Positions 39,198-53,400 of a DNA stretch of 64,000 bases are shown one piece after another. The stretch's first letter is position 1. Each line of letters starts with the position of its first letter. The DNA comes from Hormiphora californensis. Its lineage: Eukaryota; Animalia; Ctenophora. The notes under the pieces are model-generated. The model was not told the DNA's origin. It worked only from the letters and a program-made list of their open reading frames with translations, and made no database searches. The position numbers were made by a program, and so were the translations under genes. Where the stretch lies: assembly GCA_020137815.1 (NCBI GenBank), contig CM035356.1, positions 5,766,001 to 5,830,000 of the forward strand, in the 5' to 3' direction.

Positions 39198-39958
39198 TAA
39201 TACGTTTGATCCGGACGCTCTTGGCAATTTCTTTCTGATTTCTATCAATTTCTTTACTTTCTGTTTTATTTGTGCCATATTTGATTGCAATCTTATTAAT
39301 TTATCGCTTCCCACAATTTGCTGCTTTTAAATCACTTCTTCCTCCTACTGGACAACTTCCCACCTTCGAGCCCCCTTCTGTACTTCCTCTAGAGTTGGGA
39401 CTTTGGCCTCTCCTGGGCACCCCTTTGCACCCTCCCTTGTACCTGTTTGTACATCCTCCTTCCTGAGTCTTTGGTGTATCCTTTTGCCATCTGTGGTACC
39501 TGCTTCTACATTCTCCCTCGCTCCTGGGTAGTGGCCAGTGGGTATATCTTCCTGCACTCTCCCCTTTCCGAGTACCACCTTCCCTCCGTACCCTAGGTAC
39601 TTCCTTCTGCACCCCAGCCCGGCCCTGGGTCTTTCCTTCTGCATTCTCTCTTGGCCCACCTTTCATGCATGATGCACACCCAGCACCCTTCCTCTTTATG
39701 GTACCTGCTTCTTCATCCCCCTCCTGGGTACCTCCTTCAGCCTTCTGTACCCTTACTCCTTCATACCTGCTTCTACATCCTCCCCCTTTTGGGTAACTTC
39801 TTTTGCATCCCCCTTTTTGGTACCTGCTTCTACATCGTCTCTCCTCGGTACCTACTTTTGAACCCTCCTTCCTTGTTACTATACCTATCCTCTCTATTTA
39901 TAATTATCCTTTAATCCCTAAATTTCTTATTTATAACTGGATGTATTTAATAGTTTAA

Positions 39959-41444: not shown

Positions 41445-41576
41445 CTCCCTCACCACTGTATTCTTTCAGGAAAACTCATCACAGAACGGCGCTCAGTTGG
41501 AACGGCCGGAATACCTGGGTGGAAGGGTAAAATATCTGCAATGAGAGGTGTATCCTGCTTCTCAAAGATCCCTTTC

Positions 41577-41879
41577 GAAGTTATGGACTCTCTAAACGAG
41601 AAGCCTGTGATCTCCAAGTGTTCTAGAGTGGTTGCTGCTGATGGAAAAGTGAGACCTGTCGTTGTCTCTCTGAACTCCAGGGAAACTCTGATTTCTCTCC
41701 TGAGGAAGGCGAGGGAGCTCAAGACTACTACGGCCTACTCCAAGGTGTTTCTGGAGCCTGATCGGACTCTAGAGCAGAGGGTTGAGAAAAAGAGAACATT
41801 AAAGACTTTGAGTGAGTTGAGAAGGTCGCATCCTGAGGGACGCTATTTGATTATGGGTGGAGTAATACAGTGTGTGTAG
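41577..41879 (+). pseudogene. Fragment of a LINE ORF1-like protein C-terminus
   Basis: VRPVVVSLNSRE..LLRKARELK..KVFLEPDRTLEQR, homologous to the 45888 ORF; no ORF2 downstream. Confidence 0.7.
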
Positions 41880-42255
41880 GACTCTGGGTGTCGCCTGTCA
41901 TATCGGGATTATTCCTGTGTTGGCGAAGCCCTTGAATGAGTGTTTGAAATATTTGAACTTTCATTGTTTTCCGTACTCATTCTAAATGTTGACCCCGAAA
42001 TAGACAAGGAACAAATATAATACCGCCAAAGTGATTAAATCTTGTTCCAGATAAAAACATGGGTGGGGTGAACAGTTTGATCACAACGGACCGTTTTATA
42101 ATTATGAATGTGTGGATGTTATTAATTGTTGATATTTTTCGTCTATTTGAACAATGAACTGTGTACCATTTTATTATGCATGTCAGTTTAAATTATTAGT
42201 AAACAATTACAAAGAACAGTGTGGTTGAATCATTGAAACATGTTTGTAATTATCC

Positions 42256-42981: not shown

Positions 42982-44421
42982 TCCTTTTTTTTTTCAACTG
43001 TTCACCCCAAAAACTGAAATTTAATAAAAATTAGAATTTGGGTGGCGCGCGCTATAAAGTCGGATTTTTTGAAACTGTCACCCCCCTAGAGTTTTCAAAT
43101 TTCTTTAAATGACCATAAGTCCGGTTCCTGATGAGATAGAGACTTGAAACTTCGAGGTTACAAAGATCTTGCTAAGTTCTTCCGAACCTCCAAATTTCAA
43201 GTCTCTATCTTATCAGGAACCGGAGATATGACAAATTTTGTTATTTCAGGGTGGTGACAGTTTCAAAAAATCCGATAGTGGGAGACACTAGCGTGGTACG
43301 CGCAAAAAAATGCGCGCCACACGATTATCATAATTGATGAATATCTCCGGTTCCTGATAAGCTACAGAGTTCGTTTGGGTACCGTTGGAAAGGAAATTTC
43401 AAGCCCTATCGAATGGGGCCAGCGTTAAAATCTGGGTGTTTCGTGAGTGCTGACAAACGGTTTTTTAGGGTTAGGGCTAAAGTAGGGTTAGGGTTAGGGT
43501 TGGGGTTTGGGTTGGGGTTAGGCCTTGACATTCCCTACTAGATAAACTTTGAATCAGCCAAAACGGTTGAGTGGTTCGGCGGTTAGAGCCGTTTTAGTGA
43601 ATCAACTTTTTTGGCAGCGCGCACCTGTAAACAGGCCACCAAACACCCAGATTGTAACGGCGCCCATCGAATGGCGAAGGTTTGAAGTCTTTATCTTATC
43701 AGGAATAGGAGGGAAGGTGGTACTCGGAAAGGGGAGAGTGCAGGAAGAGGATAACCGGGCCAAGGGAGAGAGCAGAAAGATATACCCACCGGCCACTACC
43801 CAGGAGCGAGGGAGAATGTAGAAGCAGGTACCACAGATGGCAAAAGGATACACAAAAGACTCAGGAAGGAGGATGTACAAACAGGTACAAGGGAGGGTGC
43901 AAAGAGGTGCCCAGGAGAGGCCTAAGTACAAACTCTAGAGGAAGTACAGAAGGGGGCTCCAAGGTGGGAAGTTATCTAGTAGGAGGAAGAAGTGATTTAA
44001 AAGCAGCAAATTGTGGGAAGCGATAAATTAATAAGATTGCAATCAAATATGGCACAAATAAAACAGAAAGTAAAGAAATTGATAGAAATCAGAGAGAAAT
44101 TGCCAAGAACGTCCGGATCAAGTGTATCAAAATCCACCAAAGTGGAAATGAAACATTTCTGGTTCGGCTCGGCTTTGGACGAACTTCTCGCTCAGAAAGA
44201 GCCGCGCACTTGCACGCGCAAATCCATTTACGAATTTCACTACTGCGCGCGAAATTAAGAAACCCTACTAGTTATGAGCCAAAACGAAATTGGTGTGGCG
44301 CGCATTTTTTTGCGCGTACCACGCTAGTGTCTCCCACTACGACTTTACGTTAACATGTGATAAACGCGCAAAAAAATTCCGCGCACGACTTTGGGGGGTG
44401 AACAGTTGAAAAAAAATGGAG
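42982..44421. mobile_element. Nested MITE stack
   Basis: Outer TIR TCC(A)TTTTTTTTCAACTGTTCACCCC; inside it the AAGTCGG MITE; inside that MITE's right TIR an element 43276-44339 with 47-bp TIR TAGTGGGAGACACTAGCG and 3-bp TSD CGA. Confidence 0.85.
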
Positions 44422-45147: not shown

Positions 45148-47437
45148 ATGAATCCGTGGGCTATAAAAAATCAAAAGAGATCAGTGACATCACTCCAGTC
45201 CCTGAGTGTACTTGCATTTGTAAGGAACTGGGACACACTACACTCAACGCCCATGCCACCAATCTATCATCATGACCTAGTTGAGCGGTGTCTTGTACGA
45301 GGCCGGGTCGAGAGATTGAGGTCTATGATTCTCAGACGCGAGGTAGGGAATATACACATTATACAGTGGTGTTTTGTTTTGTGTCATACTGGTATGAATG
45401 TTTGTCACGTTATAACAGGTTATAAGCCCCCTCACCCTTGGCTTTTGCCTCGGGATCGGCGTCATGATTTATACCAGTTTAATCGCCTGGTAGGGCGATT
45501 AAACTTCATTTGGCTGTTCCCAATTCGCGCTGGGAACAGCCAACTGTATACCGCACCAAGCTATAAACGTTTGCATACTCAGCGACCAGTGCTATCTTTA
45601 TCGAAGCTCGGTATTATTTGGTTTCCAACCTATTTACGTCTGAGTGTGTGTGGTTGACATATAGAGAGGAAATAATGATGATTTATTAGATCATTAGTAG
45701 ATCTGTGGCCGGTGGAGATAGAGAGAGAAAGATCACTCGTTATATATTGTCAGTACTTCCGATATACTTGACTGTAGGGACCAATTATACTTCTATTCCG
45801 ATTTAAACTTTTCAACACTACTTTAAACAAATTAATTTGAGTTTTAGGATAAAGCTGATGTAACAGCCCACGAGGGGCAGGAAGAAAATGGTAAATACGG
45901 ATAATGAAGAAGAAGCAACTCCTCGGATTTACCTGGTAGCTCATCCTGGGAAACCGGCTACTGATATTGATAGGAGGAATGTCAACGACTGCCAACATGA
46001 TACAGTATATTGGGTAAAAGACTTGTTGTCGGAGTGTTCAGGGTTTGGATACAGTAACCCAGAGTTAGTGAGATATGGAACTGGTCCTCCACCAAGGGCT
46101 ACCTGGGATGATTTGGAGGTTCCATCTACGAGCAAGCTTAATACGCTGTCGAAGAAAAAGCTGTTAGATTTTACTAAGAGGGCGTGTGGTATTTTGCTTG
46201 AACAGACATTCCCACTAATTCAAAAGTTGCGTGACAAGGGTTGTGAAAGTATGATGGTTAGAGAGTGCAAAGAGGAGCTCAGACAGCACGGAAAGGAGCT
46301 AATTAAAGCTCAACGAGACCTAGTAGCGGCACAAGAGGAGCTACTCAATATCCAGAGGCAGTTGCTTGAAAAGAGGGAGGTTGAGATTACAGCTGTGCAG
46401 TCAACGGCACAGCAAGAAATGAAGAGCTTCTCCTCCGTTTTGAAGGAAGAATGTGCCTCGGCGCTGGCGCCAAAGAAAATTCAATCAGCTATTGTGGCAG
46501 CCTCTGAGGACCGTGGGTGTAACATCATCATCCATGGCCTGGAAGAGTCAATAAATAGTAGCGTGGAGCTTGAAACTCAAGTAGAGTCTCTTCTTGTTGA
46601 GCTAGGAGAGACTCAGAACGTGAAATCAGTGGAGCGCTTGGGAAGGCAGTCTTTAACTGTCAGACCAGTGAAAGTCGTACTGAAGAGCAGAGACGCTCAG
46701 ATGTCGATCCTGTCGAAAAAATCCCGACTAAAAAGGACCGGCAAGTTCGATAAGGTCTTCATTTCGCCTGACAGGACTTTGGAGGAACGAAATGAGAGAA
46801 GACAGCTTGTTGATCGACTGAAGAAAATGGTGCAAAGGTCTCCTGGAAAACATTACTTCATTCGTGGGAAGGAGGTGGTGGAAGCACCAGGGACCACTGA
46901 GAATTGAAATTAAATTTGTTGATTTTAGAAGTGATGAGCGAGGAAAGGACAGTTGAGTTGAAAGGTGGTCATTTGTTTGATAGCCTCAATTATTTTTCAA
47001 GTTTCAAGTTTCAATCCATGATGTTAAGAATATATAATGATGATTTAATACCACAATATCTTTATTCTAATACCACAATATATCTACTCTAATACCAGAA
47101 TATCTCTACTTTAATACCATAATATCTGACGAATATTTGCCTGGTTAGACTGTGTTTCGGGCGCCGCGCCCCCGAATCACCTTACAAATGTAAAGGGAGG
47201 GTTAGAACATAACAAACGAGTATCTGATCATCCATTCCATTCAGATTCTTATTAGTCTCCTGGGGGGATCTGACTGTTTGGTTCTGTTTCACCGCTGTAT
47301 ACAACATCTAATGGATGCAGGCATCCCGATTTGTAGCGACATAGCGACACTCATTCGAACAGGTATTGGGAAGAGGAATGTGAGGCATTTTCCGCAAAAA
47401 GAGAGAGGGGAGAGAGAGAGAGTGAGAGAGAGAGAGA

Positions 47438-50400: not shown

Positions 50401-53400
50401 TTAACCGTCACACAACTCTGATCTACAGATGTCTCATGTGTACAGTGACTTGTATAATAATAAAGTGACGTCACTGCATGTTTTCTGACGTCATGAAACA
50501 TGTTTTCTCATCCACCTCATGATGTAAACCCAGCGGATCCCTTCCACAGGATCGAGTGCACTAAACCCCTTCTCCCAGGATTGTGAACAAGTTGTTACCG
50601 GAGGAGCATTTGTTACGGGCGAGCTACCAGCCGACTTAGGGCCCTCATTCTCGAGGAATTGGCGTACAATAAGATTAGAGAGTAGGGAGGGGAGGCAGCT
50701 CCTAAAAGAAGGTACGTTAATAAAATAGAGAGTAGGGAGGGGAGGCAGCTCCTAAAAGAAGGTACTTTAATAAAATAGAGAGTAGGGAGGGGAGGCAGCT
50801 GTTTGTTTGCATGTTTATTAGTGCATGGGAGAGTACTGCACATGTAACGAGGGACATGACATCACTAATTAGACACATGTTGTTCGAATATGTTGAGATA
50901 TAAATACTACTATCATCTACTATGATAGTATAGCCTATAGTTAGTAGTTATTATACGAAGCCGAACATCTCCATCCTTGTGCTGCTGAAATATGTCTTGA
51001 TGTGGGCAAATCACACAATATGCTAATTAGTGTAATTAGTATACATGCACATAATACGAACAAGCTACGTCACAAACCACACAAATAACAAATCTCCCTC
51101 CCTCGGCAGCACAATCCCTGCATCGCGACTCCCTCAAGTTATGTAAGAGGGTTCTGGGAGAGAGTAACATCCAGACAGCGAAGCACTATGGTAATTTGGG
51201 CCGGTTGTACCAGTCTATGGGGCTCTTCAAGTCAGCTGAAAAGATGCACAAACGAGCCATCAAAATTAAGGTGAGGTTATACCGTTTTCTGTTTCTGTTT
51301 CTGTTCCAGGATTATGTTGGTAGTTGGTAGATGAGTTACAGAACCGCTTACCCAACTTTCGTGCGCTAGAAAGGGATGGGTTACTTCGTTACCAAGTTGG
51401 AAGTGATTAGTGGTCTCTAGTTGGTAGTATCCACATGTTAGATAATTTCTGATCGCGCACAGGCTCTCTAGTGGAGGGAATTTACAACTGTGAGCCCCTA
51501 CAGGTTCTATGTTTCTGTTTCTGTTTCTGTTCCAGCTGATTATAATGTTGATAGCGCCCATCCTTGGATTTCATCACTTGTGTCGCTCACACTGCATTTT
51601 TTTCCTTAAAATGACATCAGTGAGTTCGACGAGGATTCGGCAGAGCAATACATCACATGATCATTTTCACGATTACACAATTTGAGATTGGCTTACAGCA
51701 GAGGGGTACCGCTGATCTAACGACCCTCTTCACCTCTTACATAGTGGGCAAAAGTATCACGTTTAGTGATCATTTTCGACTTCCTGTCTGTGTTTCTGCA
51801 CGGATACATTACAGATAGTTGAATGAAGTGTGTCTACTTTATCGATGCTAGATTTTGCCCGTTCTGTGAAGAGAGAAACGGTTATGGTTCCTACGATTAT
51901 TGATGATGGCTTAAGCTCTTTCAGTTCGCAAAAATTACTATTGTTTCTAAAACATCTAAAACATTTAACACATTATAACTTGAAACAGGTCAGATTTTAC
52001 TAATCAGTTTAGCGAAATAAGAAGAAAGTTATATTTACAGCGTTAGAATGGAACATCCAAATGTCCGTATGATGATCGCCCATGCGAAATCTCATAAACA
52101 CCGTCTGGTTGCCGAGGAGATTAAAGCTCAAGGATGGCTTGATAACTTGAAGACTGATAGAACTCGAAACGCCAACTTTAAAGCTGCTGCGGTGGAGGGA
52201 CAGGAGGTAATGGAAAAACTCATGATGAAGCTCAAGGGAGATATAACCGTTGATGAATTCAAAGTGTGGCTTCAAATGAAGGAGGGTCATGCCAATAGGG
52301 AGAGTCAGCATTATTGGGGGATATGGGGTCACGATTCGGTAGAATCAAACAGGGTCCAGGCAGGTACTCGAGACTGCATCAAGGAAATCAGAGAAATGTG
52401 TCACTAATGGCCTGTAGTCACCTCCGAATCTTTCATGGAGTTTTGGACCATGTTTACTGAGAACAGATAGATATAGAAATGATAGAGAGAGAAAAAGACA
52501 AAGCCAGCAAGAGAGAGAGAGACTGGGAACGAGTTATTTTGACGGTTTACTGTTTAGATAAGATTTTGGCACTGTTAGGAGTGTCCGACCAGTGCCATGA
52601 TTTTCTTTTTGCCTCTTTTTTGGGAAGATGTTTGTTTTTTAGCTCGCAACTTTTTTAGCGAAGTGCGCCCGCCTCTCTTATTAGAGATATTCATGACATC
52701 GTTCTATAAAACTCCTTTTAATAACCGTGAATCGAGTCATCAGACATCGGGCAACGAGACGAAAATGGCAAAAGCCACAAACTTAGATACTATGAGGAAA
52801 CTCAGATATTAAAGTCCAATTTTTTATTTAAGCGACAGGCCGCCGCGCATGAAAATGCAGCGCTCGAAATCGATTTCTGGTTCCTGATTATAAGCTAGCG
52901 ACTTTTTCTTGGTGCCATTGGAAAGATAAAAATTTTATCTTTCCAACGCAACCAAGATCAAGTCTTTATCTTATCAGGAACCGGAGATATGACCAATTAA
53001 CCAATTGAGTGCGCCGCGGCCTGTCGCTTAAATAAAAAATTCGACTATATAACGTTTTCACCAGTAAAGTCGGATTTTTTGAAGTTGTCACCCCAAAATG
53101 ACCGCGCATGTGAAATTTATCAATTTTGACGCGCACACCACACGTTAACATGTGATGTGACGCGCAAAAACATTCCGCGCACAAAGAGGGGGGGTGACAA
53201 CTTCAAAAAATCCGACTTTATCCCCTATGAGCACAGCCTTTGCTAATAAAATAGTTCCACTCTCATCATAATAAGCTCAAGAAATAGTTTTACTGACATC
53301 AGCCTGTTCGTCAACTCTTGTTTATATCATTTTGCCCATGTTGTAATGCAGAAAGTGCTGGTATTTGGTCAGTGGTTCCGTAATCAACCGAATTGTCTGT

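What the first reader, a model, noticed from the sequence alone, without database searches (positions are those of the whole stretch)
45800..47048. Spliced-leader-headed, ORF1-only retrocopy: a candidate non-autonomous retroelement that cycles through trans-splicing
Seen: a 35-nt sequence ACTTTTCAACACTACTTTAAACAAATTAATTTGAG (45807-45841) lies 46 nt before an intact, intronless 339-aa LINE-ORF1-like ORF; no ORF2 follows; the unit ends in ..TATAATGAT and is bracketed by GATTTAA at 45800-45806 and 47042-47048. Knowledge: the 35-mer matches my recollection of the ctenophore spliced leader, which is normally added only at the RNA level; SL RNA genes have a GT donor after the leader, absent here. 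Inference: a mature trans-spliced mRNA was reverse-transcribed full length (LINE ORF2 in trans) into APPBP2 intron 1, in sense orientation. Such an element could need no promoter, being released from host pre-mRNA by SL trans-splicing at the AG ending the relic leader or the TTTTAG right after it. A diverged ORF1 fragment without ORF2 at 41577 hints at a family.
Basis: partly seen in the sequence, partly recalled or inferred. Interest (0 to 1): 0.9.

Follow-up and report, generated by a model that had tools for sequence, protein, structure and literature searches.

The report
Leader-capped half-LINE in comb jelly
A 1.2-kb repeated jumping element in what is likely a comb-jelly genome, missing at this spot in other chromosome copies, begins with the leader that comb jellies splice onto their messenger RNAs and encodes only a protein predicted to fold like the RNA-packaging protein of LINE retrotransposons, so it likely copies itself from leader-spliced RNA with a borrowed reverse transcriptase and may need no promoter of its own.

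Summary
45805-45841 equals the last 37 nt of the published Hormiphora spliced leader, lacks the GT donor, and lies 46 nt before an intact 339-aa ORF whose model matches human LINE-1 ORF1p best. Contigs of two samples join the flanks across a 1208-nt gap: the element is 45805/7-47012/14, ends in (TTTCAAG)x3 and duplicates at most 2 bp; the claimed 7-bp duplication is host DNA. It is a family: L002 (70% protein identity, other flank) has 42 leader bases, the same 5' UTR and an identical 77-nt tail; leader-UTR junction contigs are deep in DNA runs of two species labels; the ORF is under purifying selection. It lies sense in APPBP2 intron 1. So: an ORF1-only non-autonomous LINE (HAL1/HeT-A/Ag-Sponge kind) headed by the spliced leader. 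Renewal of the head by trans-splicing each round is inferred, not shown: no RNA covered the junction, no partner LINE was found. Leader-bearing transposons were noted in flatworms; this scan already found the same kind repeatedly in this genome.

The parts
45805..45841 (+). Spliced-leader head: last 37 of 44 nt of the published leader; first AA shared with the target site; no GT donor after it
   Evidence: L002 carries 42 of 44 nt
45842..45887 (+). 46-nt 5' UTR beginning TTTTAG (acceptor-like), with two small predicted hairpins
   Evidence: 45 of 46 identical in L002; fold; junction contigs in X4, X6, X13
45888..46907 (+). Intact 339-aa ORF1: helical N-terminus, long coiled coil (121-192), RRM (212-294), CTD; type II (L1-like) architecture
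   Evidence: no Pfam family above cut-off; dN/dS 0.10-0.14 in the C-terminal 60% against L002
46908..46994 (+). 3' UTR; from 46935 on identical in the diverged copy L002, likely the signal read by a partner reverse transcriptase
   Evidence: 77 of 77 identical over 46935-47011 against 19 of 27 just before it
46995..47014 (+). Terminal tandem tail (TTTCAAG) x2.9, true 3' end; last AA shared with the target site
   Evidence: empty-site joint 45804->47013; L002 ends in the same tail
47015..47048 (.).
   Evidence: present on the empty allele side of the joint
45148..45342 (+). Probable APPBP2 exon 1 (TTTTAG one base before its ATG; GT donor at 45343)
   Evidence: weak homology only (E 1.6 to Bolinopsis P0247 residues 4-60), phase fits exon 2
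47245..47362 (+). APPBP2 exon 2; further exons to about 55060
   Evidence: profile E 0.044 within the window; downstream exons 42-80% identical to Bolinopsis APPBP2

Best explanation
This is a recently inserted copy of a multi-copy, ORF1-only retroelement that begins with the host's spliced leader; it was likely reverse-transcribed from a leader-spliced RNA by the ORF2 protein of another LINE, and its lineage likely gets a fresh leader by trans-splicing in each round instead of carrying a promoter. Shown: ends, leader identity, a second leader-headed copy with another flank, conserved UTR and tail, empty allele, constrained ORF. Predicted: L1-type ORF1 fold. Inferred steps: (1) a copy lying sense in a host transcript (here APPBP2 intron 1) is transcribed by read-through; (2) the spliceosome adds a new capped leader at the AG that ends the old leader, which leaves the sequence unchanged; (3) ORF1p packages the RNA; (4) a partner LINE enzyme recognises the conserved 3' end and inserts the cDNA with 0-2 bp of duplication, losing a few leader bases. 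Odds: family and retro-origin about 0.9; template was trans-spliced RNA about 0.8; renewal in each round about 0.55-0.6.
For: Leader 37/37 in the window and 42/42 in L002 against the published sequence, with unrelated upstream flanks. Same joint (leader|TTTTAG) in both, though their ORFs differ by dS 0.42-0.62. Junction contigs without differences in DNA runs of organism A (X4 depth 305, X6 1398) and organism B (X13 1600), against 33 for the unique flank in X4. Element bins 4,100-103,000 against flank bins 270-540 in X3, higher in the 3' half, falling at the tail. Empty allele in two samples. Top 11 Foldseek matches are human L1 ORF1p. 15 of 15 relatives with a contig length sit on contigs of 1.08-1.89 kb, the 96% relative on 1,223 nt, whereas ORF2 relatives from the same sources sit mostly on 3.3-5.9 kb contigs. 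L001-L003 also end soon after ORF1 in LINE-type tails. About 30% of Hydra transposon reads carry a leader (PMC12220107); 56% of Hormiphora long reads do.
Against: No RNA contig covered the leader-UTR junction in the two RNA or possibly-RNA runs laid (X22, X19). The old leader ends in GAG, while 6 of 6 host intron acceptors read cleanly end in CAG; the better acceptor TTTTAG six bases later is kept in the copies. Identity of the leader between subfamilies is not diagnostic, because UTR and tail are as conserved. No partner LINE with this tail was found. No contig spanning this copy's own filled junctions was listed (tables cut, contigs drop alleles). Short junction contigs have under 31 letters on one side; only L002 bridges fully. 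L001 and L003 do not show a leader (contigs start after or without it).
Confidence: 0.58

Rival explanations
1. The leader was captured once and is now an inherited part of the element, working as an internal promoter or transcription-start signal (like a SINE head); trans-splicing, if any, uses the TTTTAG acceptor only to make a translated message.
For: TTTTAG is the same hexamer that precedes the APPBP2 start and is kept in all copies seen; GAG is a poor acceptor. Leader relics were proposed as promoters in dinoflagellates (PMC5585692, passages); a promoter role of the leader exon in Ascaris is recalled, from no call.
Against: Copies lose leader bases on insertion (7-9 here, 2 in L002), so an inherited head should erode and drift, yet it equals the present host leader; many different genomic sequences follow the leader (9-18 contigs per run with mixed, non-GT starts), which fits repeated capture.
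Confidence: 0.2
2. A few fixed source loci with their own promoter and outron make trans-spliced RNA; all leader-headed copies, this one included, are dead-end retrocopies.
For: Explains a constant joint without using the GAG acceptor; L002 carries a +1 frameshift; purifying selection fits working source loci.
Against: No loose end of a non-leader sequence before 45842 among the 20 rows listed of 63; many diverged lineages (33-96%) with different tails would each need such a source; a retro-lineage loses promoter and outron in its first round.
Confidence: 0.15
3. One-off processed retrogene of a domesticated ORF1-like host gene.
For: Intact ORF under constraint; intronless.
Against: High depth in three samples, second copy with another flank, heptamer tail instead of poly(A), empty allele.
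Confidence: 0.03
4. Assembly artefact (cDNA chimera or misjoin) at this site.
For: Filled junctions of this copy were not listed.
Against: Both ends fall exactly at the family's ends and meet the empty allele to within 2 bp; leader-UTR junctions are deep in DNA runs; L002 is an independent contig.
Confidence: 0.04

Closest known systems
ORF1-present non-autonomous LINEs: HAL1 (L1 clade), HeT-A (Jockey), Ag-Sponge (CR1) (PMC5786205, passages)
   Same: One ORF1 protein, no ORF2, LINE-type 3' end, needs another element's reverse transcriptase.
   Different: 5' end is the host spliced leader, not a LINE promoter region; heptamer tail; relatives carry three unrelated tails; parent LINE not identified.
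Leader-bearing transposon loci in flatworms (PMC12582326: 597 discarded loci; PMC5832876: six elements; passages)
   Same: Genomic leader fused to a transposon, read as integration of trans-spliced transposon RNA.
   Different: Noted in passing, mostly partial leaders on LTR and LINE loci, one paper allowing misassembly; no family with a fixed leader joint, empty allele or renewal model in the passages read.
Relic-leader retrogenes of dinoflagellates (PMC5585692, passages)
   Same: Leader in DNA marks reverse transcription of a mature message; recycling is repeated.
   Different: Host genes, often stacked relics; here a selfish multi-copy element with a single leader.
Trans-spliced transposon transcripts of Hydra (PMC12220107, passage)
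   Same: Transposon RNAs receive the leader in an early-branching animal.
   Different: RNA level only in the passage read; no genomic leader-headed family described.
Genomic leader copies of Hormiphora (718) and Mnemiopsis (491) (PMC8527503, passages)
   Same: This head is one such copy.
   Different: The paper treats them as leader loci and mapping artefacts; 'retro' does not occur in its main text.
Leader-gene-targeting elements SLACS/CRE/CZAR and NeSL (recalled; listing only)
   Same: Non-LTR elements tied to spliced-leader sequence.
   Different: They encode a reverse transcriptase and insert into leader genes; this one has none, carries the leader with it and sits in an intron.

Membership tests
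ORF1-only non-autonomous LINE | Single ORF of LINE ORF1 type | tested here: met
   Model CC-RRM-CTD (mean pLDDT 72); top 11 PDB matches human L1 ORF1p, E 5e-5 to 2e-3; type II occurs in L1, CR1, L2 clades (PMC4120745). Pfam PF02994 did not hit.
ORF1-only non-autonomous LINE | No ORF2 inside the element | tested here: met
   Ends fixed by the empty allele; 107 nt from stop to end; L001-L003 likewise.
ORF1-only non-autonomous LINE | Dispersed copies with shared ends and different flanks | tested here: met
   L002; depth. Copy number not counted: no genome held.
ORF1-only non-autonomous LINE | Recent mobility (presence/absence) | tested here: met
   Empty allele in X3 and X5; filled junction not listed in reads.
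ORF1-only non-autonomous LINE | 3' end shared with an autonomous LINE | tested here: inconclusive
   Not shared with the window's LINE (986 of 1000 shuffles as good); relative L003 does share that LINE's tail (0 of 1000); no partner found for this tail.
ORF1-only non-autonomous LINE | Target-site duplication | tested here: inconclusive
   At most AA, which also belongs to leader and tail; the claimed 7 bp is refuted.
HAL1 proper (L1-derived) | Poly(A) tail and L1-clade parent (recalled) | tested here: not met
   Heptamer tail, no poly(A).
Spliced-leader RNA gene | GT donor right after the leader | tested here: not met
   TTTTAG follows.
Spliced-leader RNA gene | Sm site and leader-RNA fold downstream | not tested
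   No dedicated test; Rfam gave only one sub-threshold snoRNA match.
Relic-leader retrogene (dinoflagellate type) | Leader relic at the 5' end of an intronless copy | tested here: met
Relic-leader retrogene (dinoflagellate type) | Copy of a host gene with a parent locus | tested here: not met
   Transposon ORF1 fold, multi-copy, LINE tail; a parent locus could not be sought genome-wide.
Element renewed by trans-splicing (proposed kind) | Capped, leader-joined element RNA from a copy with a shortened leader | not testable with these tools
   Only contigs were served; X19 and X22 did not cover the junction.
Element renewed by trans-splicing (proposed kind) | Alternative joints or stacked leaders among copies | tested here: inconclusive
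   No 6-nt skip listed in 4 of 4 runs at a 1% threshold under very deep leader cover; no stacked leader in window or L002.

The most novel reading that the evidence does not exclude
Comb jellies host a class of promoterless retroelements whose 5' end is supplied by the host spliceosome: an ORF1-only unit is released from any host transcript by leader trans-splicing at the end of its own old leader, borrows reverse transcriptases by swapping 3' tails, and so explains many of the hundreds of genomic leader copies; its tail repeat, which matches the leader's first bases, may let one target site anchor both ends.
Probability: 0.5. Interest if true: 0.8.

Novelty: new variant of a known kind. Interest (0 to 1): 0.55.

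Why it matters
Non-LTR elements must rebuild their 5' end and promoter in each round; known answers are internal promoters and self-cleaving ribozymes in co-transcripts (PMC5786205). Leader trans-splicing would be a third, host-supplied answer, and it gives a cap for translation as well. It would recast the 718 and 491 genomic leader copies reported in two ctenophores as largely transposon heads, and it bears on why trans-splicing lineages tolerate intronic elements. A polymorphic, intact copy with a shortened leader in a known host intron makes the idea directly testable with long capped-RNA reads.

Tried and rejected
No whole genome is held, so copies were not counted or placed on a tree. 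Leader pattern: 0 matches in viral and prokaryote genome collections; tail pattern: 0; protein in viral contigs: 0 of 51 candidates. RNA: X22 had no depth over 45860-46699 and X19 none past 45850; absence in contigs proves nothing. One X6 contig starts at 45846, where two joint forms would merge, but graph breaks have other causes; not used. One X22 contig has 41 nt like the tail (5 differences) with other sequence around it; a weak hint of a partner, not used. A circular-permutation reading (tail = missing leader start) was dropped: L002 has both a near-full leader and the tail. The 7-bp duplication and the 41577 fragment as family member were rejected. Pfam was uninformative for the ORF and 15 of 150 profile hits scanned; the protein atlas gave unnamed clusters and a 0.88 lead to Baculo_FP_2nd. 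Derelle 2010 (PMC2844618) is not held and the Hormiphora supplement could not be read; both may bear on leader variants and on what the genomic leader copies are. Passages of PMC7986045, PMC10282587, PMC12460157 and PMC4402516 added nothing. The wide structural search did not run.

Full report
Observation. The 35-mer, the 46-nt spacing and the intact 339-aa ORF are as described. PMC8527503 (passages) gives a 44-nt leader for Hormiphora californensis; 45805-45841 equals its last 37 nt. It occurs once in the window, never in 100 shuffles, and is followed by TTTTAG, not by a GT donor. The source is therefore likely a ctenophore close to Hormiphora or Pleurobrachia; the best APPBP2 relative is from Bolinopsis. 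The paper counts 718 leader copies in that genome and 491 in Mnemiopsis without a retro-explanation, so a genomic leader alone is not unusual there.

True ends. Contigs of four runs were laid on 45300-47370. X3 (depth 246, shorter side 32 nt) and X5 (depth 34, side 49 nt), two samples of organism A, each hold a contig that joins 45804 to 47013, skipping 1208 nt, with two letters fitting either side; X7 and X22 do not list it. This is the empty allele. The element is thus 45805/7-47012/14, ends in 2.9 copies of TTTCAAG, and duplicates at most AA. No contig across this copy's filled junctions was listed; the tables are cut and contigs drop alleles, so this is a gap, not a refutation.

Family. 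Of 33 pattern matches in metagenome contigs, 4 encode relatives. L002 (70% protein identity) has 53 nt of unrelated flank, 42 of the 44 leader bases, the same joint, a 5' UTR identical at 45 of 46 sites and a tail identical at 77 of 77, while the ORF halves match at 251 of 375 and 559 of 645 sites; it carries a +1 frameshift. In X3, element bins have summed depth 4,100-103,000 against 270-540 in unique flank bins, higher in the 3' half and falling at the tail; X5 and X7 (organism B) show the same drop at the tail. Contigs with no difference cross the leader-UTR joint in X4 (depth 305; unique flank 33), X6 (1398) and X13 (1600, organism B), though each has fewer than 31 letters on one side. The tool warns that depth is no copy number; ten to some tens of copies is my rough reading. 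18 relatives were found among 4146 candidates; the 15 with a contig length sit on 1.08-1.89 kb contigs, the 96% relative on 1,223 nt, whereas relatives of the window's LINE ORF2 sit mostly on 3.3-5.9 kb contigs (long proteins need long contigs, so this control is biased).

Protein. The model shows a coiled coil, an RRM and a C-terminal domain (pLDDT 72); its 11 best PDB matches are human LINE-1 ORF1p. This is ORF1 type II, found in L1, CR1 and L2 clades (PMC4120745, passages). dN/dS against L002 is 0.63 in residues 1-125, 0.10 in 126-250 and 0.14 after the frameshift; against L001 0.20. A profile finds 10,118 representatives at E up to 0.001.

Tails. L001 ends in (TGA)n, the window copy and L002 in the heptamer, and L003 in a stem plus TTA repeats that resembles the 3' end of the LINE at 25330-28945 (score above 1000 of 1000 shuffles, best place in the window). 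The window element's own tail does not resemble that LINE. ORF1-only units thus appear to carry tails of different LINEs, which fits borrowed enzymes; the partner for this tail was not found.

Host site. APPBP2 exons run on the + strand; exon 1 (45148-45342) rests on weak homology, a GT donor and phase, exon 2 on a profile hit. The element is sense in intron 1, so read-through would cover it.

Mechanism. A DNA copy that starts at the leader needs an RNA that starts there. Either trans-splicing made that RNA or the leader starts transcription. Copies lose leader bases (7-9 here, 2 in L002) yet match the present leader, and in DNA runs 9 to 18 listed contigs per run continue from the leader into mixed, mostly non-GT sequence, which suggests repeated capture; I favour renewal by trans-splicing. 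Against it: the old leader ends in GAG whereas 6 of 6 cleanly read host intron acceptors end in CAG (two further rows were off-register or the start acceptor), the better TTTTAG acceptor is kept in the copies, no 6-nt skip was listed in 4 of 4 runs (weak test), and neither RNA run covered the joint. An inherited leader acting as promoter (0.2) and fixed source genes with outrons (0.15) remain.

Prior work. ORF1-only LINEs are known (PMC5786205, passages). Leader-bearing transposon loci were noted in flatworms (PMC12582326, PMC5832876; passages), leader-spliced transposon RNAs in Hydra (PMC12220107), relic-leader retrogenes in dinoflagellates (PMC5585692). Nine searches listed no paper describing a leader-headed ORF1-only family or a renewal cycle in ctenophores; most subscription papers, Derelle 2010 and the Hormiphora supplement were not seen. 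This scan has reported the same kind on other pieces of this genome, for ORF1-only units and full LINEs (48 of 67 notes fit the words 'spliced leader', 8 shown); those are unchecked notes, not support.

Verdict. A real, recent, leader-headed half-LINE with corrected ends; new variant of a known kind. Interest 0.55; 0.8 if renewal by trans-splicing is shown.

Noticed in passing
window 46995-47014 and 45805-45841; L002 54-60: The tail repeat matches the leader's first bases (7 nt against the L002 leader; chance 2% anywhere in the leader, 0.3% in its first 10 nt, post hoc). The target's last bases resemble both, so one microhomology could anchor both ends.
   Followed up: partly
window 25330-28945: 5'-truncated LINE: end of a zinc-knuckle-like ORF1, intact endonuclease-RT ORF2 (about 970 aa), strong terminal stem and (TTA)n tail; a 95% relative lies on a 4,933-nt contig. 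L003, an ORF1-only relative, has a similar tail.
   Followed up: partly
window 41445-42250: 5'-truncated distant ORF1-like fragment without ORF2, lying between two (TC)n runs; may be a microsatellite-targeting relative.
   Followed up: partly
leader hub: In DNA runs many different sequences follow and precede the leader, the majority start after it not GT, so many genomic leader copies are probably heads of other retro-sequences.
   Followed up: partly
window 45864-45876; L001 2-13: A small GC hairpin shortly before the start codon is predicted in both, with different loops.
   Followed up: no
window 38834-39587 and 43055-44339; 52810-53210: Inverted duplicate of a composite repeat with a palindromic 220-bp insert at different positions; looks like a miniature inverted-repeat element inside another repeat.
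   Followed up: no
window 34991-38625: Tandem duplicate of an intronless BTB-domain gene on the minus strand (93% over 846 nt); the second copy has a broken frame.
   Followed up: no
window 45440-45580 and 47120-47260: Two short very high-depth repeats in the same intron.
   Followed up: no
L004 422-1350: A 39% relative also stands without ORF2 on a 1.9-kb contig and has no ctenophore leader; ORF1-only units of this type may be wider spread.
   Followed up: no
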